Positions 1,714 to 63,366 of a stretch of 64,000 bases of DNA are shown one piece after another (position 1 is the stretch's first letter; every line of letters starts with the position of its first letter). Both the position numbers and the translations under genes were made by a program. Under the pieces are notes generated by a model, which was not told the DNA's origin, did not search any database, and saw only the letters and a program-made list of their open reading frames with translations. Source of the stretch: Emiliania huxleyi CCMP1516 (Eukaryota); contig NW_005201338.1 of assembly GCF_000372725.1 (NCBI RefSeq), forward strand, positions 290,041 through 354,040. The letters run 5' to 3'.

Positions 1714-1871
1714 GTGTGTCGGGTGGCTCCGCTGTCTCTCGCCAACGCCAGTTGGGGCGAGGGAGAATTCTACGACGACAAGCCCCTCTCACAGCAGACT
1801 GGCACGAACTAGCACCACAAAAGGCACAGCGAGGGAGAATAGAGAATTTTACAACCGAACTCCGTCGCACA

Positions 1872-1940
1872 ACACTGGGCACGGGACTGGCGAGCACTGG
1901 CACTAACACAGGTACACCGAGAATAGAGAATTTTACAACC
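1872..1940 (+). repeat. Dispersed repeat family A (GGGCACGGGACTGGCG[C/A]GCACTGGCACTAACACAGG)
   Basis: Near-identical copies at 5973-6012(-), 23727-23795(+) and 62835-62950(-); variants at 52552-52602 and 62968-63035. Confidence 0.85.
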
Positions 1941-9231: not shown

Positions 9232-12200
9232 ATGGAAGATCCTGAGCAAACGGAGCGCGTGACGACAGCAGCTATTGACGGCGATGTCGATGCACTGCGC
9301 TCGCTCGCTGAACAGTGCGGCAGCAAGGTGCTGATGGCAGCTTCGGCAGACGGCAGCACACCGGCACACGCCGCCGCTGCAAACGGCCGACTCGACGTGC
9401 TCCGCTTACTTGTTGAGCAGTGCGGCCCAGAGGTGTTGACGGCTGCGGCGGCGGACGGCAGCTCGCCAGCACACGCCGCCGCTGCGAACGGCCACGTCGG
9501 CGTGCTCCGCTTCCTCTGTGAGCAGTGCGGGCCAGAGCTGCTGACGATTGCGATGGCGGACGGTGTGACGCCCGCGTACGCCGCCGCCCTCGGCGGTTAC
9601 GTCGACGCGCTCCGCTTCCTCTCCGAGCAGTGCGGCAGCGAGGTGCTGACGGCCGCGAAAGCGGACGGCGGCATGCCAGCGCACGCCGCCCTTGGTGGCC
9701 ATGTCGACGCGCTCCGCTTCCTCGTTGAGCGGTATGGCAGCGAGTTGCTGACGGCTGCTGTTGCGGGCGGCAGCACGCCAGCTCACGCCGCCGCACTCAA
9801 CGGCCATGTCGACACGCTCCGCTTCCTCGCAGAGCAGTGCGGCAGCGAGGCGCTGAGCGCTGCGGACGTGGCTGGCTGGACCCCAGTGCAGACCGCCGCT
9901 CTCGGTGGCCATATTGAGGCGCTCCGCTATCTCGCCGATCAGTGCGGCCTTGAGCTACTAACGGCTGCGAGACCGAATGGCAGCACGCCAGCTCACACCG
10001 CCGCTTTTGCTGGCCACGCCGACGTGCTCCGCTTTCTCTCCGAGCAGTGCGGCAGTGAGGTGCTGACGGCTGCGAGGGCGGACAATTTGACGCCAGCTCA
10101 CGCCGCCGCTCGCAGAGGCAACACTGACGCGCTCCGCTATCTCTTCGAGCAGTGCGGGCCAGAGGTGCTGACGGCTGCGGATGCGGACAGTGTGACGCCA
10201 GCACACATCGCCGCTCTCGACGGCCATGTCGACACGCTCCGCTATCTCTTCGAGCAGTGCGGCAGCGAGGTACTGACGGCTGCGATCAAGGACGGGCGCA
10301 CGCCAGCTCACTTCGCCGCTGCGAACGGCCACGTCGACGCGCTCCGCTTCGTTGTGGAGGAGTGCGGCAGCGAGGTGCTGACGGCTGCGACGGCGGGTGG
10401 CAACATGCTCGCGAATGCCGCCGCTCTTGCCGGCCATGTCGACGTGCTCCGCTTCCTCTCCGAGCAGTGCGGCCCTGAGGTGCTTGTGGCAGCAAGTGCG
10501 AACGGCTTCAGGCCGGCGCACGACGCTGCGCAGGAGGGCCACGTCGACGCACTTCGCTTTATTGTCGAGCAGTGCGGCAGCGAGGTGCTGACGGTTGCCA
10601 GGGCGAATGGCAGCACACCGGCTCACGCCGCCGCTGCGAACGGCCATGTCGACGCGCTCCGCTATCTCGCCGAGCAATGCGGGCCAGAGCTGCTGACGGC
10701 TGCGAGGGCGGACAGTGCGACGCCAGCACACATCGCCGCTCTCGACGGCCATGTCGACGTGCTCCGCTTCCTCTCCGAGCAGTGCGGCAGCGAGGTACTG
10801 ACGGCTGCGATCAAGGACGGGCGCACGCCAGCACACTCCGCCGCTGCGAACGGCCACGTTGACGTGCTCCGCTTCCTTGTGGAGGAGTGCGGCAGCGAGG
10901 TGCTGACGGCTGCTGATGAGGGCGGTTGGACGCCCGCATACGCCGCCGCTCTCGAGGGCCATGTCGACACGCTCCGTTTCGTTGTGGAGCAGTGCGGCAG
11001 CGAGGTACTGACGGCTGCTGATGAGGACGGTTGGATGCCCGCGTACGCCGCCGCTCTCGGCGGCCATGTCGACACGCTCCGTTTCGTTGTGGAGCAGTGC
11101 GGCAGCGAGGTGCTGACGGCTGCGATCAAGGACGGGCTCACGCCAGCTCACTTCGCCGCTGCGAACGGCCACGTTGACGCGCTCCGCTTCGTTGTGGAGG
11201 AGTGCGGCAGCGAGGTGCTGACGGCTGCGACGGCGGGTGGCAACATGCTCGCGAATGCCGCCGCTCTTGCCGGCCATGTCGACGTGCTCCGCTTCCTCTC
11301 CGAGCAGTGCGGCCCTGAGGTGCTTGCGGCAGCAAGTGCGAACGGCTTCAGGCCGGCGCACGACGCTGCGCAGGAGGGCCACGTCGACGCACTTCGCTTT
11401 ATTGTCGAGCAGTGCGGCAGCGAGGTGCTGACGGTTGCCAGGGCGAATGGCAGCACACCGGCTCACGCCGCCGCTGCGAACGGCCATGTCGACGCGCTCC
11501 GCTATCTCGCCGAGCAATGCGGGCCAGAGCTGCTGATGGCTGCTGATGAGGACGGTTGGACGCCCGCATACGCCGCCGCTCTCGGCGGCCATGTCGACAC
11601 GCTCCGCTATCTCTTCGAGCAGTGCGGCGGAGAGGTGCTGACGGCTGCGATCAAGGACGGGCGCACGCCAGCACACTCCGCCGCTGCGAACGGCCACGTT
11701 GACGCGCTCCGCTTCCTTGTGGAGGAGTGCGGCAGCGAGGTGCTGACGGCTGCTGATGAGGACGGTTGGACGCCCGCATACGCCGCCGCTCGCAGAGGCC
11801 ATGTCGACACGCTCCGCTATCTCTTCGAGCAGTGCGGCAGCGAGGTGCTGACGGCTGCTGATGAGGACGGTTGGACGCCCGCATACGCCGCCGCTCGCAG
11901 AGGCCATGTCGACACGCTCCGCTATCTCTTCGAGCAGTGCGGCGGAGAGGTGCTGACGGCTGCGATCAAGGACGGGCGCACGCCAGTACACTCCGCCGCT
12001 GCGAACGGCCACGTTGACGCGCTCCGCTTCCTTGTGGAGGAGTGCGGCAGCGAGGTGCTGACGGCTGCTGATGAGGACGGTTGGACGCCCGCATACGCCG
12101 CCGCTGTCAATGGCCAGGTCGACGTGCTCCGCCTTCTCGCCGAGCAGTGCGGCAGCGAGGCGCTGACGGCTGCGAATGCGAACGGCTACACGCCAGCGCA

Positions 12201-15200
12201 CAGGGCCGCTGCGCATGGCCATGTCGACGTGCTTCGCTTCCTCGCCGAGCAGTGCGGCAGCGAGGTGCTGACGGCTGCGATCAAGGATGGCGACACGCCA
12301 GCGCACGCCGCCGCTGACAGTGGCCATGTCGACGTACTCCGCTTCCTCTCCGAGCAGTGCGGCAGCGAGGTGCTGACAGCTACGAACGCGGGTGGCTGGA
12401 CCCCGGTGCACAGAGCTGCTCTCGGTGGCCACGTCGACGCTCTCCGCTATCTCGCCGAGCAATGCGGGCCAGAGCTGCTGACGGCATCGGACGGCAGTAG
12501 TCCAGCGCGCATCGCCGCAGTAAGGGGCAAGGTTGACGCACTCCGCTTCATCGTCGACCTGTCAGCCCAGTCGATTCCTACCGTTCTTCTCGACGCGCTC
12601 AAGAGGAACTCTGAGCACGCTCCGCTCGCCCTCGCCTGGCAGTCCCTGCTCAGCAGCCAGAAGCCCTCATTCTTCTCCTCCCGACCCGACCCTGCAAAGA
12701 TCGAGGCTGCCCTCGCCGCCGCACGGGATGCAGGCGTTGCATCCAGCGAGCTTGACCGTGCAGCAGCTTTGCTACGTGACACAAAGCTGTTGCGCGCGCT
12801 CAACGGCCGCCCTGCCCCCAAGCTGCTGCTATCGACCATCGCGAGCAATGGCCCTGGCGCGAACAAGGCGGTTGTGACGCTGAGTGGCCTACTCGACCCG
12901 CAGAACATGCTGCTCAGTTGGGCGGCGCTAACGGCAGTCGCTGAGAGCCCTGATTTGCCATCTGACGTTCTCACGCCGCTTCTCTCGTGCTTGACGCGCG
13001 CCCGCGCTTACTGGTCGCCCGATGGATGGTCTGAGGACGCAATTGAGTGGGTTACGGCCGCTCTCGCGGCACTCGAAGCCAGCTTCCTCGTTCGCAGCGG
13101 CCCGTTTGAGAACTACCCGGACCTCATCCACGCCCGTCTCATCGGTCTGATGCAAACGACGACGCCCGAGCATCTGCGAGTTCGTGCCGCCTTCGTGCTG
13201 AGCCACGCATACACGCGAGGCTACCCCGCCGATGCGGCCAGCTTCGACGCCTCCGATGCTGCTGGTCTTCTCGCTCGCTCGGTGCGGATCAGTGCCGCTT
13301 GCTCGCCGCCCGCGGTGCTCGCGTCGGCCGCCGGCTTTGCACTGGTCGCCGCAGCCACGGCGGGCTTTGCTGCCGCGCAGCGTGCGCTGGCCAGCCTCGC
13401 TAGCGACAGCACGCTTGGCATTCTGCTTGGCGCGACGATCAGCGTGCCTGCCAACTGCGCCGTCCTGTGGGCGTCGCTCGACCCTGTGCAGCGGTGCATC
13501 GACTTTTACCCGCGCGCGATTGCGCAGCAGCTCGAGGCGGCGCTCGGCAGCGGCAAGGACCGCTGCATGCTCGGCGCCGACTTTTTCAACGCGACCGTCC
13601 ACCTCCCGCCGGACGGCGGCTTTTACCAGACCACGCTCGGGCAGCACATGGGCCGCTCGGGCTATAAGGCGCCGGGCTTCCGCTCGGCGTGCCGCATCGT
13701 GCACCCGCGCAGCGCGCGCACGGTGACGCTGCACGGGCGTCGCGTCCAGGGAGAGTGGCGCCTCGCAGAGAGCGGCGACGACGCCGAGTACAGCTTTGTC
13801 GAGGTCGCGCCGGCGCACTGCATGCTGTGCCGTGAGGCGGCGGAGGAGCTTACGTCCTTGCGTTGGCCAGCCGCTTTGGTTGCAATCGTACATGCCATCC
13901 TCAACGGCACCCAAGGCGGACTCTCCGCAGAGGTTGTGGGTGCCCTGCTATCATGCGCCGGACCAGCGGAGCTGCCTGAGCCTATACATTCCGGCGACTG
14001 GCTCTGCGATGCTGCAGCGCTCCTGTTTGCTGGCCTAAGTGAGCTCGAACACACTAAGGAGACTGCGGAGCTCGTCAAGGCGGCGCGCTGGGTCTGGGAG
14101 CACGCGGCCCAAAGCCGGCTGCTTCGCGACGGACACCCATGGCAGCCACTACTTTTGCAGAGCATGCAGCGCGCCGCCGACCGCATTGAGGAGCTTGAGG
14201 CTCGTGCGGCTAGGCATGACCAAGAGGATCTGCTGCAAATCGTGAGCGGCGCTGTGGCGGTGGCAGAGGTGGCGACAAAGCATTGCGCAGTCGGCGTCGT
14301 CGACTCGGCTCCCGCCCGCATCCTGAGTGAGCTTCGCAGCCTCGAGCGTACTTTGCAGAACGAAAAGTTCGAGCTGATGGTCTACGGCGTGTACAGCGTT
14401 GGCAAGAGCAGGCTGCTGCAGACAGGCTACCCGGGTCTGAAGAATATGCTGCCTGTCTCCTCTAAGGAGTGCACCGCGCACCTGATCAAAATTGACGTCG
14501 GCAGTGATGGCCAGCGCGGCGAAAGCGATGCCGAGCTACATTTCGACTGGCAGTCCGTTGTTAAAATGGACTCGACGCTGCGCGATTTGCTTCCAGACAA
14601 GGTTCGCCGCTTTCTTGAGGAGCCGCACGTCCGAGAGTTCATCGATGGCTTTCTGATGGAAGACGAGCAGCAATCGCCCCCAACGTTACCGCTTTCAGAG
14701 GAGGAGGTCAGCGCGTGGGCTCGCGTCGATGGCGGCAGCGATAGTACGAGCATCAAGGCCCTTGCTAGCGTGGTTGATCACATCGCGGTCAGCGTCACGG
14801 TAGACGCCGACTGCCCGCGGTACAACATCATCGACGCCCCTGGGCTTGGGGCCGACAAGAGCCGACGCGACATCGCAGAGCGCCACCTGCGCAAGTGTGA
14901 CGTGCCCATCGTCATCGCCTCCTTCATCGACCTCAGCCTCGAGCCGCTTCAAGAGGCGCTGCGGCAAATCAAGGCCAGCGGCCATCAGCCAATTATCGTC
15001 ATCACGAAGCTCGACGAGCAGTACACGCGGCTCGGTGAAGACCATCCCAGCCAAGACCTGTCCGCCCTTATGGAGGCAAGTATGGCGGACGCACGGCGGA
15101 TCTTCGTTCAGGCCGGTTTCCGAGAGTCAGATGTCCACTTCGTTTCCGCGTACTGGTTCGAGTTCTCGAAGGATCGGCAACGTGCTGCGCGAGTGCGCGC

Positions 15201-18117
15201 CGCGCTTGAGACTGCGGGTCTGCCGTCCGACGAGGACGAGTCGACTGCTCGCGAAACCCTGCGCCGCCTATCCGGGATCGACGCCTTTTGGGATGCCGTC
15301 GACGAGCTAGTCATGCGCGATGCGGCCAGACGACGTGCTGGGAGGGTTTGCGAAGAGCTGGCGCAGCACCTCTCCCAGCTGCTTGGCATGCTCCTCGACC
15401 AGGACGGCTTGCTGAGCGGAGTCAGGCCAAACGCGGATGATCCAGAGTGGCGTGCCGACGTGCAACGCACTTCCGTGGCAGCTAAGGGGACTCTCGATGC
15501 AGCGCTAGACGCGATGCAGTCCGAGTGCTCCGACGCAATCGCAGAGACTGCCACGCGGATGCGGAAGGGGCTGACGGAGCTGGTCCTCGAGCTTCAGAAG
15601 ATGTGTGCCGGGGGATCCACCATCGACCAGCTCTCAGCTCGCCTGCAGCAGCGCTTTGCCGAGCTGCAGCAGACGCTTGCCCCTTACCAAGGGTGGGAGA
15701 TGGCGGGAAATAAGATGCGAGACCATCTCGAGCGTGCAGGTGAGCAGCTGGCCGAGCTGCTTCGAAAGCACTTTCCCGGCTCCGTCCACTCGCTGCTGCT
15801 TTCGTCGTCGCAGCTGCAAACGCCTGCAATCACCGATGCGCCCTCGAGTATCACGACGCCCAACGTCACGCGGAATGTGGCGGGTGCAGTTGCAGGGGCT
15901 GTGCTCGAGATCGTCGCCCTCTGCGCGCTCCCAGTCATTGCAACAGCGATTACCGGCGGCGCCGTTGCGCCGCTCCTAGCCCCGGTGGTAAGGAGTGCAT
16001 TACCGAGTGCAGTGGCTGCTGGCATTCAAGTCTACCAGGCCGAGGCCGGACGCGACCTGCCTGCGGAGTGGGTGCGCGAGTGCGAGGAGGCAAAGAGCGG
16101 GTGGATCCGAGACTTTGAGCGCGGTCTTCGTCGCCAGCTGGAGGTCTGGAGGCGGCAGGTGAGCGCAGCTGTTGTCAGTCAACTCGATAGCTGGATCGAT
16201 GGCATTCAGGCAGCAGCCAGCCTGCCCCCTGATCAGCTCCAGCCTTCCCAGGCTGACATCCGTGCCGCCGGCGAGCAAGGACAGGTACTGCTGTCGGATG
16301 CTGTCGCGTTGCTGGATCGCCTCAGCGGTAATGTTGTCTCGGATGGTGCAGAGATCAACATTGTGCGCCTCGGTGCTCGCGTGCGACGGCTGAAAGCGAG
16401 TGCCAAACGATGGCTCGACATCGATCTGCAGCTTGCCGATCCCTCAGAGGAAGCGGCGCGTGAGCGACGGGAGGATACCCAAAGGCAAACCACAGACAGC
16501 TACGCCTTTCTTGCATCGGTCCTGACGACTGAGCTCCGGCGCCATGGCTCGGAGCTCGAGGCGACTCAGACGCTACGAGCGCCATCAAGCCGCCCGCAGC
16601 CCCCGCAGCCCCCGCAGCCCCCGCGTGGCGCTCCTCGTCCCACGGCTGCAGCGCAGGAGATCGCGCGGCACGCGCTCCTGGCTCGGCTGAGCGATGAGGT
16701 ATACTCTCGACACGACGCGGGTGAGGTGCTCTTCTTGAAGAGCGCCGATGACCCGAGTGTCGACGAGCAGGTGGAGGTGCTGCACTTCAGCTCTGCTGGC
16801 GGCGGCACCTGGAAGGTGCCGCAGTGGGCAGTCTTCCGTACCGCAGGCCGCGCTGACGGCGACTTTGTGGCTCTCGTCTTCAAAGGCACGGAGGCCCCGA
16901 CCGAATGGGTGGTGGACTTTGCGTGTGTGTCTCGCGAGGCCGGCGGCGGGCTGAAGCTCCACGCCGGCATCTCTGGCAACTTGCGATCGCACATCGCGGC
17001 TGTGGAGTCCGCGATCGCCCGCTCGACGACAGACGCCGGCGCTCTGCCGCTCTACTTCTCCGGCCACTCGCTCGGAGGCGCGTACGCCATGTGCGCCTTC
17101 TACATGGTTGCGCCGACTCTCTCGCAGCGGGTCGCCGGCGTTGTCGGATTTGGTGCCCCGCTCGTGACCGTCGCCGGAGGCCCGCCCGAGATCGTGCTGA
17201 CGGCTAAGCTGCGGTTCTTGACCTACGTGTCGGGCAACGACATCGTGCCACGCTCCCTGTTCAAGCCGAATGCTGAGAAGTTGCTCGCCTTTGCTCGCCG
17301 TTTGGGCAAGAGCCAGGCATTGTCTACCGTCTCCAACGCCATGCCGACATTTGACATGATTGGCCAGTTCCGCGCGCTGCCGGGAGCGGTCGAGCGACCC
17401 CCTTCCGAGCTGCTGCGGATTCGGCCAGATGCGCCGCTGACGTCGCACATCGACGACCACGCGTGCCGCGGCTATGCACGACTGCTTGATGAGTGCGCAC
17501 TCGAGCTGCTGCCGAGTGCTACGTCCACACCGATGGCACCGGCACCGTCACCGACGGAGGCGGCGGTGGTGGTGATGTCGGCGGCGGCAGCGGCGGCAGC
17601 GGCGGCAGCGGCAACAGCAGCGTTGGCGGAGACAGAGGCGCGGACGGCGGGGACGGCGACGGCGTCTACGTCTATCGAGGCTCCTTTCCCGACGGCGCAG
17701 CAGGAGCTGGCGCAGGCGCTCGAGGCGTCGGAAGGACGGTCGCAGGTGGCTGAAGATCGTGACCTGGCGCACGGCATCGAAGAGTCGCTTCGAACCGACG
17801 GCCCGTCCCCCTTCGCTTCGGCCGCCGCCGCCGTACAAGGCGAGGCGGGCTCAATGGGCTCCTCCATGTCAGTTTCAGCGGCCGAGTCAGCGTCGACGGT
17901 GCAAGCATCCCCGATGAACTCTCCTCGAGGGCGGGCAATGGTGGCGCTTCTCGAGGACGCTAAGCTCACCGCTTATGCGAGTGTGCTGCACGATGCCGGA
18001 TATTATGAGCTGACTGATCTCAGAGAGGCCGACGACGCAGACCTCGGCGAGCTCGGAGTGGGACTCAAGAAACCCGAGATCAAAAGATTGCGACGCTATC
18101 TCGAGAAACAAGTCTGA
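9232..18117 (+). CDS. Giant multidomain protein: ankyrin array - WWE-like - dynamin-like GTPase - hydrophobic hairpin - class-3 lipase - SAM
   Basis: Uninterrupted 2961-aa ORF; TPAH.AA..GH repeats; G1 GVYSVGKS (14386), G3 DAPG (14833), G4 TKLD (15004), FVSA; lipase FKGT, GHSLGG (17062), FGAP, NDIVP; C-terminal SAM-like YASVLHDAGYYELTDL...LGELGVGLKKPEIKRL. Confidence 0.9.
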   Translation: MEDPEQTERVTTAAIDGDVDALRSLAEQCGSKVLMAASADGSTPAHAAAANGRLDVLRLLVEQCGPEVLTAAAADGSSPAHAAAANGHVGVLRFLCEQCGPELLTIAMADGVTPAYAAALGGYVDALRFLSEQCGSEVLTAAKADGGMPAHAALGGHVDALRFLVERYGSELLTAAVAGGSTPAHAAALNGHVDTLRFLAEQCGSEALSAADVAGWTPVQTAALGGHIEALRYLADQCGLELLTAARPNGSTPAHTAAFAGHADVLRFLSEQCGSEVLTAARADNLTPAHAAARRGNTDALRYLFEQCGPEVLTAADADSVTPAHIAALDGHVDTLRYLFEQCGSEVLTAAIKDGRTPAHFAAANGHVDALRFVVEECGSEVLTAATAGGNMLANAAALAGHVDVLRFLSEQCGPEVLVAASANGFRPAHDAAQEGHVDALRFIVEQCGSEVLTVARANGSTPAHAAAANGHVDALRYLAEQCGPELLTAARADSATPAHIAALDGHVDVLRFLSEQCGSEVLTAAIKDGRTPAHSAAANGHVDVLRFLVEECGSEVLTAADEGGWTPAYAAALEGHVDTLRFVVEQCGSEVLTAADEDGWMPAYAAALGGHVDTLRFVVEQCGSEVLTAAIKDGLTPAHFAAANGHVDALRFVVEECGSEVLTAATAGGNMLANAAALAGHVDVLRFLSEQCGPEVLAAASANGFRPAHDAAQEGHVDALRFIVEQCGSEVLTVARANGSTPAHAAAANGHVDALRYLAEQCGPELLMAADEDGWTPAYAAALGGHVDTLRYLFEQCGGEVLTAAIKDGRTPAHSAAANGHVDALRFLVEECGSEVLTAADEDGWTPAYAAARRGHVDTLRYLFEQCGSEVLTAADEDGWTPAYAAARRGHVDTLRYLFEQCGGEVLTAAIKDGRTPVHSAAANGHVDALRFLVEECGSEVLTAADEDGWTPAYAAAVNGQVDVLRLLAEQCGSEALTAANANGYTPAHRAAAHGHVDVLRFLAEQCGSEVLTAAIKDGDTPAHAAADSGHVDVLRFLSEQCGSEVLTATNAGGWTPVHRAALGGHVDALRYLAEQCGPELLTASDGSSPARIAAVRGKVDALRFIVDLSAQSIPTVLLDALKRNSEHAPLALAWQSLLSSQKPSFFSSRPDPAKIEAALAAARDAGVASSELDRAAALLRDTKLLRALNGRPAPKLLLSTIASNGPGANKAVVTLSGLLDPQNMLLSWAALTAVAESPDLPSDVLTPLLSCLTRARAYWSPDGWSEDAIEWVTAALAALEASFLVRSGPFENYPDLIHARLIGLMQTTTPEHLRVRAAFVLSHAYTRGYPADAASFDASDAAGLLARSVRISAACSPPAVLASAAGFALVAAATAGFAAAQRALASLASDSTLGILLGATISVPANCAVLWASLDPVQRCIDFYPRAIAQQLEAALGSGKDRCMLGADFFNATVHLPPDGGFYQTTLGQHMGRSGYKAPGFRSACRIVHPRSARTVTLHGRRVQGEWRLAESGDDAEYSFVEVAPAHCMLCREAAEELTSLRWPAALVAIVHAILNGTQGGLSAEVVGALLSCAGPAELPEPIHSGDWLCDAAALLFAGLSELEHTKETAELVKAARWVWEHAAQSRLLRDGHPWQPLLLQSMQRAADRIEELEARAARHDQEDLLQIVSGAVAVAEVATKHCAVGVVDSAPARILSELRSLERTLQNEKFELMVYGVYSVGKSRLLQTGYPGLKNMLPVSSKECTAHLIKIDVGSDGQRGESDAELHFDWQSVVKMDSTLRDLLPDKVRRFLEEPHVREFIDGFLMEDEQQSPPTLPLSEEEVSAWARVDGGSDSTSIKALASVVDHIAVSVTVDADCPRYNIIDAPGLGADKSRRDIAERHLRKCDVPIVIASFIDLSLEPLQEALRQIKASGHQPIIVITKLDEQYTRLGEDHPSQDLSALMEASMADARRIFVQAGFRESDVHFVSAYWFEFSKDRQRAARVRAALETAGLPSDEDESTARETLRRLSGIDAFWDAVDELVMRDAARRRAGRVCEELAQHLSQLLGMLLDQDGLLSGVRPNADDPEWRADVQRTSVAAKGTLDAALDAMQSECSDAIAETATRMRKGLTELVLELQKMCAGGSTIDQLSARLQQRFAELQQTLAPYQGWEMAGNKMRDHLERAGEQLAELLRKHFPGSVHSLLLSSSQLQTPAITDAPSSITTPNVTRNVAGAVAGAVLEIVALCALPVIATAITGGAVAPLLAPVVRSALPSAVAAGIQVYQAEAGRDLPAEWVRECEEAKSGWIRDFERGLRRQLEVWRRQVSAAVVSQLDSWIDGIQAAASLPPDQLQPSQADIRAAGEQGQVLLSDAVALLDRLSGNVVSDGAEINIVRLGARVRRLKASAKRWLDIDLQLADPSEEAARERREDTQRQTTDSYAFLASVLTTELRRHGSELEATQTLRAPSSRPQPPQPPQPPRGAPRPTAAAQEIARHALLARLSDEVYSRHDAGEVLFLKSADDPSVDEQVEVLHFSSAGGGTWKVPQWAVFRTAGRADGDFVALVFKGTEAPTEWVVDFACVSREAGGGLKLHAGISGNLRSHIAAVESAIARSTTDAGALPLYFSGHSLGGAYAMCAFYMVAPTLSQRVAGVVGFGAPLVTVAGGPPEIVLTAKLRFLTYVSGNDIVPRSLFKPNAEKLLAFARRLGKSQALSTVSNAMPTFDMIGQFRALPGAVERPPSELLRIRPDAPLTSHIDDHACRGYARLLDECALELLPSATSTPMAPAPSPTEAAVVVMSAAAAAAAAAAATAALAETEARTAGTATASTSIEAPFPTAQQELAQALEASEGRSQVAEDRDLAHGIEESLRTDGPSPFASAAAAVQGEAGSMGSSMSVSAAESASTVQASPMNSPRGRAMVALLEDAKLTAYASVLHDAGYYELTDLREADDADLGELGVGLKKPEIKRLRRYLEKQV
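9256..12560 (+). repeat. 105-bp (35-aa) ankyrin tandem array, ~32 units including caps
   Basis: Units counted in the translation; units 11-14 recur as 19-22 at an 840-bp offset. Confidence 0.95.
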
Positions 18118-55434: not shown

Positions 55435-55545
55435 CCCGGCGGGGATGGTGTTGCGCGGCGTCGCCTCCGTCCGTCCTCGCGGACGCTGACCGACTCCTCA
55501 CATAACACGAACCCCCGACCACGCACCTGGGGCGCGGTCGGCTCT

Positions 55546-55924
55546 ATGCTGTTCGTGGCGCTCCTGCACCTGGCGACGCCGCTCGAGCCACCACAAGTGC
55601 CGCGTCTCAACCTCTACCCGCCCCGCCGAGTTGCGCTGCTCGTGGAGCCCACACCATTCACGCACATCAGCGGCTACTCCAATCGCTTCAAGGAGATGCT
55701 CCGCTTCCTGGTCGCTGCTGGCGACGAGGTGCACAGGCTGGTGGTGCGCTGTCGCCCGACCACACCGAACCGCCTCCACCTCGCCTGGAATAGGTGACTG
55801 TGATCACGCCGGACGACACACCGGAGCGGCCGCGCTCTTTCCTCGGCGTACCGATCACCTACCTGCCCGGCTTCCGCCTTCTTTTCTACAAGCAGGCGAC
55901 ACTGCACTCGCGCCACCGCCGCTG

Positions 55925-55990
<66 letters not shown>

Positions 55991-58900
55991 TCCCTCTCCC
56001 TCACACCCTCACCCTCACCCTCGCCCTCGCCCCAGCCTTCAACCCTCCCCCTCCCCTCGTGTCCAGCGCACCGAACTGCTCCTGGAGGCGTGAGCAGACG
56101 CTCCTCACACCTCGTCAGGTCCAGCTCTCGCTCGACTGCCGCCGCGTCGCCCTCCGCGCCCTCCGCTCCTTCCGGCCAAGCCTCCTCCACGTCTCTGCCC
56201 TGTGAATAGTATAGCTGTGAACAGTACAGCTGTGAATAGGCCAAGCCTCCTCCACGTCTCTGCCTGTGAATAGTATAGCTGTGAACAGTACAGCTGTGAA
56301 TAGGCCAAGCCTCCTCCACGTCTCTGCCCCCGGCGTCCTCGCCCTGCCCGCCATCTTGTGCGCGCGCCTCCCGTCGCGCGCCTCTCTCTGTGTGAACGGC
56401 GACTCTTCACACACGCACCCGCACCCGCGAGTGCAGGTACTCTCGCCTCCTCTCCGTCCCTCTCGTCGTCTCGTACCACACACACCTCTCCGTCTACGCC
56501 GCGCGCTACGTCACCACCCCCGGCGCCGCCTCGCCTCGCCTCTGCTCTGCTCTGCTCTCCTCTCCTCTCCCCTGCTCTCCTCTGCTCTCCTCTGCTCTCC
56601 TCTCCTCTCCTCTCCTCTCCTCGCCTCTCCTCGCCTCGCCTCGCCTCTCCTCTCCTCTCCTCGCCTCGCCTCGCCTCGCCTCGCCTCGCCTCGCCTCGCC
56701 TCGCCTGTGTATGTTACCAAGGCCCGGACCCACAGGCTTGCGCTGGCTCGCGGTGAAGCTGGCAGACGCGCTGCTGCCCCGGCTGCTCAACTGCGCCGAC
56801 CTCACGCTCGCCACGAGCCCGCAGCTGCAGCAGCAGCTGCGCGCGCTCGGCTGCAGGCGCGTCGAGGGTGGGTTCGGGTACCGTGGGGTAGGGGAGGGTG
56901 GGTTCGGGTACCTTGGGGGGTAGGGGAGGCGCTCGGCTGCAGGCGCGTCGAGGTGTGGCGCAAGGGCGTCGACACGCTCACTTTCTCGCCCGCCTTCAAC
57001 GTCTCCAACGCCCACGCCCGGCACGCGCTGACGGGCGGGCAGCCGCACCGGCCGCCGCTGCTGTCGCTGGACTCGTGCCGCGTCTCCCGCCGCCGCCCTC
57101 CGAGAAATGGCCGAGATCGCGTAGGCCGCTGCTGCTGTACGTCGGGCGGCTCGTAAAAAAGAAATCCCGCACCTGGGCGATTTCTTTTTTAGGCCGCTGC
57201 TGCTGTACGTCGGGCGGCTCGGCGCGGAGAAGCGCGTCGAGCTGCTGCGGCCAGGCTGTCTCGGCTCTTTGGCCAGCGAAGGTGGTGACTCGGTCACAGG
57301 CGCGTCGAGCTGCTGCGGGCGGTGCTGGACGCGAGGCCGGACGCGACTTTGGCGATAGCAGAACTGTGAATAGTGCAGCTGTGAAGAGTGCAGCTGTGAA
57401 TAGGCCGGACGCGACTTTGGCGATCGTTGGCGGGGGGCCAGCGGAGGCGAGTTCACACCGTCCTATTCACAGCTGCACTCTTCACCGCTGTACTGTTCAC
57501 AGCTCTGCTCTCACACCGTCCTATTCACAGCTGCACTCTTCACAGCTGTACTGTTCACAGCTCTGCTCTCACACCGTCCTATTCACAGCTGCACTCTTCA
57601 CCGCTGTACTGTTCACAGCTCTGCTCTCACACCGTCCTATTCACAGCTGCACTCTTCACCGCTGTACTGTTCACAGCTCTGCTCTCACACCGTCCCTCAC
57701 CAACGGTCAACACCTCCCTCTGACTGGTCTGCCCGGAGGCGAGTTTGCGCCGCGAGTTTGCCGGTGCGGCGGCGGTGTTTGCCGGCGTTCTGCGGGGGCG
57801 AGGACCTCTCGTAAAAAAGAAATCCCCGCGCATCGGCGATTTCACTTTTACTAGGCGTTCTGCAGGGCGAGGACCTCTCGCGCGCGTACGCGGCGGCGGA
57901 CGTCTTTGTGAGTGCCCGCCGAGTCGCCGGGCGACAGCCGCGTGACACGATTGCGGTGAGGCGTCCTGGTGGTTGGGCGCAGGTGATGCCCTCCGACTCG
58001 GAGACGCTGGGTTTCGTCGTGCTCGAGGCGATGGCTTCGGGCGTGCCCGCCGTCGCCGCCGACGCGGGCGGGCTGAGATTAGCCGAGATTGAGCCGAGAT
58101 TAGCCGAGATTAGCCGAGGTGCGCCGAGATGCGCCGAGATTAGCCGCCGACGCATGGCGGGCTGTCTGTTCTGGTGGCGGCCGTGACAAAAAAGGAGACG
58201 CGGGCCGCGCACACACGCAAGCTGTGGGCAGGCGGGCTGTCGAGCCTGGTGGCGGACGGCGAGACGGGGCTGCTGTTCACGCTCAGCTGTGAAGAGTACA
58301 GCTGTGAACAGTACAGCTGTGAATAGGCGAGACGGGGCTGCTCTTCACGCCGAACTGTGAAGAGTACAGCTGTGAACAGTACAGCGGTGAATAGGCGAGA
58401 CGGGGCTGCTTTTCACGCCGAGCTGTGAAGAGTACAGCTGTGAACAGTACAGCTGTGAATAGGCGAGACGGGTCTGCTCTTCACGCCGGGCGACGGGGCC
58501 GACCTGGCGGCGAAGGTTGGGCGGCTGGCCGGGGAGCCTAGAAGCTGAACCCCGTCTTCCCTGTACTCCCACCAGCGCTCGAGAGGAGCACGTCTTCCGC
58601 CGCATTCGGCCGCATTCGGCTGTGTGTGAGAGGCCTCTGATCGGCTACTACGATCTCGACTTCACAAGTCCACTTCACAAATCTGCCCCCGTGTCCCGCA
58701 GATCGACGATCCGCGGCTGCGGTGGGAGATGGGCCGAGCGGCGTGCGCCGAGGCGCGGCAGCGCGGCGTGAGACCCTCCGTCGCGAGGAGACGGGCTCCG
58801 CGTGGCTTGACCGCCACCCGGCACTTGCCACCAGGCGAGGCGGTGGAGCTGGGAGGCGGCCACGTCGGTGCTGCGCAACGAGCAGTACGCGCTGGCGGAG

Positions 58901-59023
58901 AGCCGCTTCCGGGAGCGGCAGCGGTGGGTCGAGGCGAAGCTGGAGGCGTGGCGGAGTCCGCTGACGCGACTGCGGAAGCGCCGCCCCCACCGGACGCGAC
59001 CGAGCGTGGCCGCGTTTGCGTGA
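55546..59023 (+). CDS. SQD2: Sulfoquinovosyltransferase-like GT4 glycosyltransferase, many introns
   Basis: RRVALLVEPTPFTHISGYSNRF, SYHTHL, VWRKGVD, LLYVGRLGAEK, VMPSDSETLGFVVLEAMASGVP, WEAATSVLRNEQY. Confidence 0.85.
55924..56032. repeat. (ACCCTC)n telomere-variant hexamer inside an intron
   Basis: Directly visible. Confidence 0.9.
56527..56706. repeat. (CTCGC/CTCTC/CTCTG)n pentamer tract inside an intron
   Basis: Directly visible. Confidence 0.9.
57454..57695 (-). repeat. 4 x 58-bp tandem of the CTGTGAA element in reverse orientation
   Basis: Units start at 57454, 57512, 57570 and 57628. Confidence 0.9.
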
Positions 59024-59359
59024 CAGCATCGTTTTGACTTTTGTCGGGAGATGTGTTTCCGTGGTACTCGAGTACAGAAAACCCCTTGGAGGTTGGAGCA
59101 CTTGGTCTTGGAGTAGTGCAGTCGACTTTTCTCGGCGGTGTAACCGCGCCCTGGGGTTGCGGGGGTCGCACGGCCATAACGGGATTCGACGAATTCTTTT
59201 GACCGCGATATGCATGCACATGTCATGCACAACATGTGCATGTGCATGTGCATGTGCATGTGACATGTGTGCATATGTCCACCTCGGTCCTCTCGCCGCC
59301 GCCGCTCGCGCCGCCTCGCCCCCGCCGCCACCGCCGCGCCCTCGCCAGACACGCCGCCG

Positions 59360-62657: not shown

Positions 62658-63366
62658 TGGAGCACTTGGAGCGTGTGCAGTGTTATATAGCAGCCGCACA
62701 TCCACACACCTTCATCCAGGGCCGGGGAGCTAAGACTTAGGCTAAGAAGCGCACCAGCGGGCCAGATGATTGGGATCGGGTTACGGGCTAGATAGCCCTA
62801 GCCTTGGAGCAGCAATCAGCGCCTTTTTTCTTTCCAGTACGCGCCAGTCCCGTGCCCAGTCGTGCGAGGGAGTTTTCTTGTAAACTCCTGTGTTAGTGCC
62901 AGTGCGCGCCAGTCCCGTGCCCAGTCGTGCGAGGGAGCTTTCTTGTAAACTTCTTTTTAGGATGTGCCGGCGCGGTGTGTGTGCCAGTCCGCGCCGGCAG
63001 TCCGCGCCCTTGTGTCGTGCCACAGCGTGCTGTGTGAGAGGTTTGAGGTAGGTAGGTAGAAAGGTGAAGAACAGTCAGGCTCGGACTGGGCACCAACGCG
63101 GTATGCGTGGACGCTGGACAGATGATGACGACACGCACGAGCGACACACAGACACAAACAGGCTCACAAGACACACAGCCAGCTGGCTGCCACACACCCT
63201 GAGTTGGCGTACACATAACTCAAGGCCACATCCTCCCTGTCGCCCCCCCCAGCACTCCAAGGTGCCAAAGGACACAAACAAGGGCACAACAACACAACAG
63301 ACGACAGGAAGTAACATGCGAGGCTAGAGCAGGCTTGCTCCACCTCTAGCAATCTCGCCGGCCGGC
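62658..63366 (-). mobile_element. Cluster of repeat families B, A and C, all reverse
   Basis: Matches to 19218-19412, 23727-23795 and 18885-19215. Confidence 0.8.

What the first reader, a model, noticed from the sequence alone, without database searches (positions are those of the whole stretch)
56174..58490. Introns made by exon duplication plus a filler ending in AG: candidate GC-AG intron-generating mechanism
Seen: at least eight interruptions of SQD2 begin with a 12-32 nt copy of the downstream exon start. Predicted introns: 56175-56303, 56857-56942, 57051-57192, 57232-57299, 57336-57403, 57447-57738, 57785-57854 and 58259-58462. Each starts GC (from the duplicated exon) and ends AG, and removal restores conserved GT4 sequence exactly (FR|PSLLH, H|RPLLLYVGRLG, EK|RVELL, AR|PDATL, AE|ASLRR, FA|GVLQGE, AD|GETGLLF). 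Unit lengths cluster at 64-70 nt (68 nt at three sites). Established: known introners co-opt short TSDs for splice sites. Inference: insertion or repair with long duplications at G|GC sites yields instantly spliceable introns, which could explain this genome's GC donors.
Basis: partly seen in the sequence, partly recalled or inferred. Interest (0 to 1): 0.85.

Follow-up and report, generated by a model that had tools for sequence, protein, structure and literature searches.

The report
Tiny mobile inserts that build introns
In a sulfolipid gene of the alga Emiliania huxleyi, 11 of 16 introns begin with a copy of the exon sequence that follows them, most are cut out in RNA data, and the short fillers recur in other genes, which likely marks a still-active copy-and-paste process that makes introns by duplicating about 20-30 bases of the site it enters.

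Summary
The gene is E. huxleyi SQD2 (16 introns, 447 aa, ungapped against haptophyte relatives). 11 of 16 introns start with a copy of the next exon (9 GC, 2 decayed GT). The fillers are short repeat families. Family A occurs at 8 independent sites (4 here, 4 in metagenome contigs); all end at the same base (...GAATAG), are followed by G, and sit in a 10-28 nt duplication, often with microhomology at the other end. RNA contigs show removal of 5 of the 8 named introns directly and 1 by length. Two nested units are present in some DNA runs and absent in others. Against 'instantly spliceable at G|GC': targets also start GA or GT, two insertions are antisense, and two introns are largely retained in some RNA runs. 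E. huxleyi introners are already listed in Gozashti 2022/2025 supplements, with duplications mostly unresolved. The long variable duplication with one fixed end is what I did not find in print. Best reading: tiny non-autonomous elements copied into staggered nicks, probably by a retrotransposon enzyme. No enzyme was found; no genome-wide test was possible.

The parts
55546..59023 (+). SQD2-like sulfoquinovosyltransferase gene (GT4), 17 exons, 447 aa; allele of EMIHUDRAFT_225608
   Evidence: Pfam GT4 on P0125 and P0014
56175..56303 (+). GC-AG intron: two tandem units (65, 64 nt) of 25-26 nt exon copy plus family A filler
   Evidence: lay outside both read-laying stretches, splicing not tested directly
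56358..56436 (+). GT-AG intron whose first 29 nt are a decayed copy of the next exon
   Evidence: score 11.5, above all 230 controls
56857..56942 (+). GC-AG intron: 25-nt duplication (56843-56867 and 56929-56953) around a family D 30-mer filler; two GC-AG registers remove the same 86 nt
   Evidence: RNA joint in X2, X14, X7
57051..57124 (+). older unit: 14-nt exon copy plus filler ending in a CCGAGAT-type repeat and TAG; retained in the main contig of X2 and X7
57125..57192 (+). younger nested unit: 29-nt exon copy plus family B hairpin; absent from DNA runs X5 and X1, present in the window and X9
57232..57299 (+). GC-AG intron with AA|GC donor: 19-nt copy plus 49-nt filler; copy number varies; splicing only indirectly supported, retained in X14
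   Evidence: (P0002 reads through three units)
57336..57403 (+). GC-AG intron: 21-nt copy plus 47-nt family A filler
   Evidence: RNA joint in X11, X2, X7, and jointly with the next intron in X14, X16
57447..57738 (+). GC-AG intron with a 12-nt straddling repeat; a 60-nt older intron holding the antisense array below
   Evidence: joint in X2, X7
57454..57695 (-). antisense family A insertion with 10-nt duplication, four tandem 58-nt units; X9 lacks 167 nt of it
57785..57854 (+). GC-AG intron: 27-nt copy (one indel) plus family B hairpin
   Evidence: RNA joint in X11, X2, X14, X7; fold z -3.4
57908..57982 (+). GT-AG intron whose first 19 nt are a decayed exon copy now reading GTGAGT
   Evidence: RNA joint in all 5 RNA-type runs
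57963..58004 (+). empty site in the window: in L004 these 42 nt are duplicated around a 33-nt 10-mer filler
   Evidence: contig breaks in X5, X9, X11 and a loose end in X16 fit its presence
58068..58231 (+). GC-AG intron: old unit (58157-58231, about 24-27 nt decayed copy plus filler) with a CCGAGAT 10-mer insertion nested at its 5' end
   Evidence: RNA joint in X11, X2, X7
58259..58462 (+). GC-AG intron: three tandem 68-nt units of 24-26 nt copy plus family A filler; one unit in L004
   Evidence: X14 record 13 spans 242 letters, the spliced length

Best explanation
These introns are likely the footprints of very short (about 35-60 nt) non-coding mobile sequences that are copied into the gene and duplicate about 10-40 bases of the target, so that the duplicated exon start supplies the GC or GT donor and the insert's fixed end supplies the AG acceptor. 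Shown: the duplications, the multi-copy fillers, the fixed end followed by G, splicing of most, and presence/absence between strains. Inferred: two staggered nicks about 20-30 nt apart; the template's fixed end joined at the nick before a G; the other end joined by a few bases of microhomology to the end of the duplicated stretch. This geometry is that of target-primed reverse transcription, so a non-LTR or Penelope-type enzyme acting in trans on small RNAs is my preferred motor (about 0.45 given a mobile origin; enzyme not found). Antisense inserts would give an intron only where the duplication itself holds AG|GY. Afterwards the duplication likely seeds tandem expansion and contraction, new units land at the same G, and the copy decays toward a normal donor.
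For: Family A: a 40-nt core at 8 independent sites in 5 loci, all ending ...GAATAG then G, duplications 10-28 nt. Two of the 8 are antisense (57454-57695; L001/L002), where the AG has no splicing role on the coding strand, so the fixed end is not only a splicing filter. Across 16 tabulated units of at least six filler types, 16 have G at the start of the duplication and 15 end in AG (L002 read one base on); units 58-91 nt, median 68. Microhomology at the variable end at L003, L005, L006, both family B units and the L004 unit. RNA joints for 56857, 57051, 57336, 57447, 57785, 57908, 58068; DNA-type runs X5, X1, X9 show none of these joints. Unit 57125-57192 is absent in X5 (depth 353) and X1; X5 contigs do break at the true loops at 57232 and 57963, an internal control against collapse. 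L002 shows a HECT-like gene (motif recognised from memory) with two such insertions about 400 nt apart. Variable-length duplications flank non-LTR insertions (PMC9977147, passages).
Against: No autonomous element or enzyme: none among 20 long window ORFs and no genome was available. The four metagenome sites were found with a pattern ending in GAATAG, so their end is ascertained; only the following G and the duplication are independent. Fillers are heterogeneous and include abundant 10-mer and 30-mer repeats that could be repair templates. The intron-free ancestral allele was not seen for any intron position: both polymorphisms lie inside or at existing introns. Retention dominates 57051-57124 in X2 and X7 and 57232-57299 in X14, and retaining them truncates the frame (334 and 332 aa). 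All read data were assembled contigs, not raw reads. Outside SQD2 the other 60 kb of the window gave no clear case. The SQD2 model has a long branch (0.8 against 0.27, quick tree), so the gene may be unusually tolerant.
Confidence: 0.7

Rival explanations
1. Repair of staggered breaks with templated insertion: the cell patches a break by copying a bit of an abundant repeat, the overhang is filled in as a duplication, and selection keeps only patches that end in AG and start with GY.
For: Fillers are unrelated to each other; families C and D are very abundant (summed contig depth about 300-700 times the flanks in X5; not a copy number). The 10-mer inserts show microhomology on both sides. Staggered-break intron gain with nested events is described in Daphnia (PMC4202315, passages).
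Against: Family A ends at the same base at 8 of 8 sites, two of them antisense; repair patches are expected to vary at both ends (inference). Daphnia exon-intron repeats are 4-12 bp, here 10-42.
Confidence: 0.2
2. A HUH (Replitron-like) transposase mobilises the units as single-stranded DNA, giving one fixed end at a target motif, a fuzzy other end and a variable duplication. This is a variant of the best explanation with another motor.
For: Replitron-1 makes variable-length duplications with one fixed and one fuzzy end, and Replitron proteins were recovered from two haptophytes (PMC10288648, section 9 and passages). Family B is a hairpin (z -3.4 and -3.7).
Against: Replitron-1 inserts downstream of RG; here the fixed end abuts G on one strand, that is C on the other. 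Several unrelated templates would need one enzyme. No Rep gene seen.
Confidence: 0.15
3. Excised introns are themselves the templates: a reverse transcriptase starts at the intron RNA's 3' AG end and stops after 35-60 nt, so introns beget introns and every filler ends in AG whatever its sequence.
For: 15 of 16 fillers of unrelated sequence end in AG, also in antisense copies. Two family A copies share extra bases upstream of the core that resemble the duplicated flank at L005.
Against: Families that carry AG would also be the ones that survive in exons. The L004 unit ends in AT. No parent-daughter pair was proven.
Confidence: 0.2
4. Old introns with local tandem duplication across the splice site and later repeat invasion; no intron was gained.
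For: No intron-free allele was seen. The L004 unit and 57125-57192 add sequence without adding an intron position. Five introns lack the signature.
Against: In 57232, 57336, 57785, 56175 and 58259 the intron consists only of exon copy plus filler, with nothing left over for an older intron. Relatives called as single frames on 4-18 kb contigs span all 16 positions (weak, since such calls may be spliced models).
Confidence: 0.07

Closest known systems
E. huxleyi introner families catalogued by Gozashti et al. 2022 (PMC9860276, Suppl. Tables 5, 6) and 2025 (PMC12130899, dataset sd07)
   Same: Same species. 653 elements in 5 families of mean length 37 or 70 nt (2022); 3 families in 2025, one noted '10bp terminal direct repeats; co-opt 5' carry 3'' (supplement rows seen).
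   Different: Duplications are scored '?' for 4 families and 'N' for 1; mechanism 'Unknown' or LTR; donors mostly GT because they rest on the JGI annotation (my inference). No family sequences in the files I could search (0 hits for two filler motifs in a file cut when stored; 2 of 14 files of the 2025 paper not searched), so overlap with families A, B or D is possible and untested.
Introner-like elements of Symbiodinium and Polarella classes 1, 4, 5, 6, 8, 10 (bioRxiv 10.1101/2020.10.14.339549, parts 1-2 of 4 read)
   Same: Donor recruited from the start of a G-beginning duplication, acceptor carried by the element; both orientations in some classes; GC, GT and GA donors.
   Different: Duplications are fixed at 3-8 nt per class; here 10-42 nt and variable within one family, often longer than half the filler, with microhomology and tandem amplification.
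Non-LTR and Penelope-like retrotransposon insertions (target-primed reverse transcription)
   Same: Variable-length duplication, short 5'-truncated copies, head-to-tail tandems (PMC9977147, PMC8557442, passages); non-LTR introners are about 5% of classified families.
   Different: No poly(A) tail, no link to a coding element, and 5' variation of only about 0-10 nt in most family A copies.
Replitron-1 / Replitron-N1 of Chlamydomonas (PMC10288648)
   Same: One fixed end at a target motif, fuzzy other end, variable duplication, copy-and-paste.
   Different: 0.9-3.6 kb, RG target, under-represented in coding sequence and introns; not described as making introns in the passages read.
Intron gain by tandem genomic duplication and by double-strand-break repair (PMC3443670, PMC4202315; passages)
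   Same: Direct repeats at intron ends; both splice sites from a duplicated AG|GY, as at 56857 (one register) and L001; nested events.
   Different: Pure duplication has no filler; Daphnia repeats are 4-12 bp and their inserts mostly of unknown source.

Membership tests
Introner (intron-generating transposable element) | Similar sequence at several unrelated loci | tested here: met
   Family A at 8 sites in 5 loci; family B at 2 sites of one gene
Introner (intron-generating transposable element) | Insertion is removed from mRNA and restores the coding frame | tested here: met
   Joints for family A unit 57336 and family B unit 57785; 58259 by length; partial retention at two other introns
Introner (intron-generating transposable element) | Intron absent at the same position in relatives (gain shown) | tested here: inconclusive
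   Only nested units were polymorphic; relatives' frames span the positions but may be spliced models
MITE / TIR DNA-transposon introner | Terminal inverted repeats | tested here: inconclusive
   Family B folds end to end (z -3.4, -3.7); five other fillers do not
MITE / TIR DNA-transposon introner | Short duplication of fixed length (3-9 nt) | tested here: not met
   10-28 nt in family A, 27 and 29 nt in family B
Non-LTR / Penelope-type retroposed element | Variable-length duplication with one fixed end | tested here: met
Non-LTR / Penelope-type retroposed element | 5' truncation with microhomology | tested here: inconclusive
   Microhomology at several sites, none obvious at 57336; length variation small except L001
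Non-LTR / Penelope-type retroposed element | Poly(A) or simple-repeat tail, and an autonomous reverse-transcriptase partner with the same 3' end | not testable with these tools
   No poly(A); 15-mer repeats could be such a tail; no genome held
Replitron-1 type | Insertion downstream of RG | tested here: not met
   Fixed end abuts G (C on the other strand) at 8 of 8 family A sites
Replitron-1 type | Rep HUH transposase with matching termini | not testable with these tools
   No genome; none in 20 window ORFs
Tandem genomic duplication intron | Both splice sites from the duplicated AG|GY and no foreign sequence | tested here: not met
   Every unit holds a filler; both sites from the duplicate only at 56857 (one register), 57447 and L001
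Double-strand-break repair intron (Daphnia type) | Short (4-12 bp) repeats around an insert without a recurrent end | tested here: not met
   Repeats 10-42 nt and a recurrent end

The most novel reading that the evidence does not exclude
E. huxleyi makes new introns by reverse-transcribing the 3' tails of its own excised introns into staggered nicks before a G. Every copy then carries an acceptor, the donor is whatever G-N the exon offers, and this one process explains both the majority of GC donors and the widespread intron retention in this species.
Probability: 0.15. Interest if true: 0.92.

Novelty: new variant of a known kind. Interest (0 to 1): 0.66.

Why it matters
Where new spliceosomal introns come from is an open question, and most known introners leave short fixed duplications. 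Here one gene holds a time series: strain-variable units, young perfect copies, tandem arrays and decayed copies that look like ordinary GT introns. It gives a simple genome-wide test (intron start against next exon start, by donor type) for why E. huxleyi uses about 60% GC donors, which PMC4028052 attributes only to base composition. It also explains why gene models of this locus are wrong (P0002, P0125 read into the copies).

Tried and rejected
No whole genome is held, so no genome-wide count or enzyme search. Rfam: 0 matches at E up to 1 in 55500-59100. Viral contigs: 0 hits for two family A patterns and the family D pattern; prokaryotic genomes: 0 for family D. The 68 viral hits to a loose family B pattern are chance: none has GC over 0.55, 1 has a flanking repeat, 1 a partial tail. 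No full-length transcript-derived E. huxleyi SQD2 protein in three protein searches; no second named E. huxleyi SQD2 among the 120 hits listed of 386, so a redundant paralog is not shown. Pseudogene rejected: intact 447-aa frame and spliced contigs. Assembly artefact rejected (see observation). MITE rejected for all but the shape of family B. Helitron rejected from recalled knowledge and (no duplication). The duplication-filler anticorrelation (rho -0.60, p 0.013) is not used as evidence because the boundary is ambiguous. Copy-number differences in short-read contigs (L004 one unit against three) may be collapse. Lack of cover at 57338 and 57415 in X5 and X1 is unexplained and not used. Loose ends of family D cluster 1-2 nt after the same GGGGAG motif (10, 9 and 7 contigs): a hint only. 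Nine paper searches were answered; none listed a paper describing this architecture in E. huxleyi; subscription papers and bioRxiv supplements were not searchable.

Full report
Identity. Exon 1 is 100% identical to E. huxleyi CCMP1516 model EMIHUDRAFT_223825, and model EMIHUDRAFT_225608 carries the window's allele. Both public models read into the introns. A 16-intron model from 55546 to 59023 gives 447 aa, ungapped against P0014 over residues 13-422 and against P0038 over 18-419. Relatives are GT4 proteins, several named sulfoquinovosyltransferase. No genome was available.

Observation. The eight intervals are as stated, GC to AG. Five introns (4 GC, 1 GT) show nothing. In the rest of the window the 66 exact repeats are SQD2 units, coding repeats (ankyrin, 45-mer) or isolated pairs without the AG|G junction; with an AG|G anchor there were 16 hits in SQD2 and 3 weak ones outside. 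Neighbouring genes have long uninterrupted frames, so the insertions are clustered in this gene.

Anatomy. Each unit is: copy of target, filler, then the target again. Fillers fall into families: A, a 40-nt core of 15-mer repeats ending ...GAATAG (four sites, one antisense inside intron 57447); B, a 39-43 nt hairpin (two sites; z -3.4 and -3.7); a 30-mer (D); CCGAGAT-type 10-mers (C); and single-site fillers. One scan of JGI metagenomes with a family A pattern gave 6 stretches: one is SQD2 itself (L004), two are the same site (L001, L002), so 4 new sites. All have the same end, then G, and duplications of 19-28 nt. Their duplications start GA (3) or GC (1); loose ends in runs X2 and X7 add a site starting GT. 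L001 is antisense to a HECT-like frame and its duplication contains AAG|GT on the coding strand; the same contig has a second, sense, 68-nt unit of a related filler. Over 16 units, length is 58-91 nt (median 68, five exactly 68), duplication 10-42 nt (median about 24), G starts all 16 duplications, and 15 fillers end in AG (script values for D and L002 are a few bases off the exact reading).

Splicing. All runs were assembled contigs. I laid 8 of 17 listed runs. RNA-type runs X11, X2, X14, X16 and X7 show joints that remove 56857-56942, 57051-57192 (X11, X14), 57336-57403, 57447-57738, 57785-57854, 57908-57982, 58068-58231, 58528-58701 and 58753-58834. X14 record 13 spans 242 letters, the length expected only if 58259-58462 is removed. 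56175-56303 lay outside both stretches. For 57232-57299 no joint is listed (3 joints were hidden in the two outputs). X2 and X7 contigs end at 57250, the end of the copy, where DNA contigs run on to 57261, which suggests a spliced branch; X14 runs on like DNA, which suggests retention. In X2 and X7 the otherwise spliced main contig keeps 57051-57124. Reading contig breaks this way rests on my recalled knowledge of de Bruijn assembly. Retention is common in this species (89% of 535 introns had read-through, PMC4028052, passages).

Activity. DNA-type runs X5 and X1 lack 57125-57192, X9 has it. L004 has a 75-nt unit that the window lacks, with 42 nt duplicated across an acceptor; contig breaks in X5, X9, X11 and a loose end in X16 fit its presence. 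Tandem copy numbers differ: P0002 reads through three units at 57232, X5 and X1 show loops there, X9 lacks 167 nt of the 58-mer array. No intron-free allele was seen.

Mechanism. One fixed end next to a target G, a variable end with microhomology, and a variable 20-30 nt duplication fit two staggered nicks and a copied template. Non-LTR insertions leave variable duplications and Replitron-1 leaves the same geometry with another target. I prefer a reverse transcriptase acting in trans on small RNAs because several unrelated templates share the footprint; this is inference, and repair with templated insertion remains possible, mainly for the 10-mer fillers. Because the donor is whatever follows G, the expected GC share among GC and GT is 0.57-0.79 in six coding stretches, close to the published 61-65%. 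That is consistency, not proof, and GA-starting sites must mostly be purged or poorly spliced.

Known or new. Main texts of PMC9860276 and PMC12130899 do not mention the species, but their supplements list E. huxleyi introners: 653 elements in five families with duplications '?' or 'N', and later three families, one with 10-bp terminal direct repeats that co-opts the donor and carries the acceptor. Donor-from-duplication is standard in dinoflagellate introners, with 3-8 nt. So the kind is known and so is its presence in this species. The long variable duplication, fixed end, microhomology, nesting and decay series were not found in nine searches; unread supplements and subscription papers may hold them. 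An earlier AI note of this scan reports a similar 15-nt footprint in another haptophyte; I did not check it.

Verdict. A real and active intron-forming process, a new variant of introners; motor unknown; link to the genome's GC donors plausible and directly testable. Interest 0.66.

Noticed in passing
window 57232-57318 in run X11: The 68-nt unit assembles as a closed loop at depth 448 against 139-215 for exons in a random-primed RNA library: tandem copies with retention, or a circular intron RNA.
   Followed up: no
window 56358-56372: The intronic copy reads Ala where the exon now has Ser and relatives have Ala (LYAR/ILYAR), so the intron may preserve the ancestral codon.
   Followed up: partly
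L002 1-122 and 463-560: A HECT-like gene with a sense 68-nt unit of an A-related filler (in tandem) and an antisense 91-nt family A unit; clustering as in SQD2.
   Followed up: partly
L003 and L005: Sense family A insertions in open frames whose duplication starts GA; they would need GA donors. L005 has three tandem units.
   Followed up: no
window 9232-18117: 2961-aa uninterrupted frame with about 30 ankyrin repeats, a dynamin-like region, lipase 3 and SAM domains.
   Followed up: no
window 1757-1940 and 62837-62995: Direct repeats of 23 nt at 84-nt spacing and a 65-nt tandem with AT-rich spacers, without the AG|G junction.
   Followed up: no
P0003, P0004: Begin with the E. huxleyi exon 1 peptide and continue as another species' SQD2; probably chimeric assemblies.
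   Followed up: no
window 55925-56058, 56529-56706: ACCCTC and CCTCT microsatellite arrays inside two GC-AG introns that lack the duplication signature.
   Followed up: no
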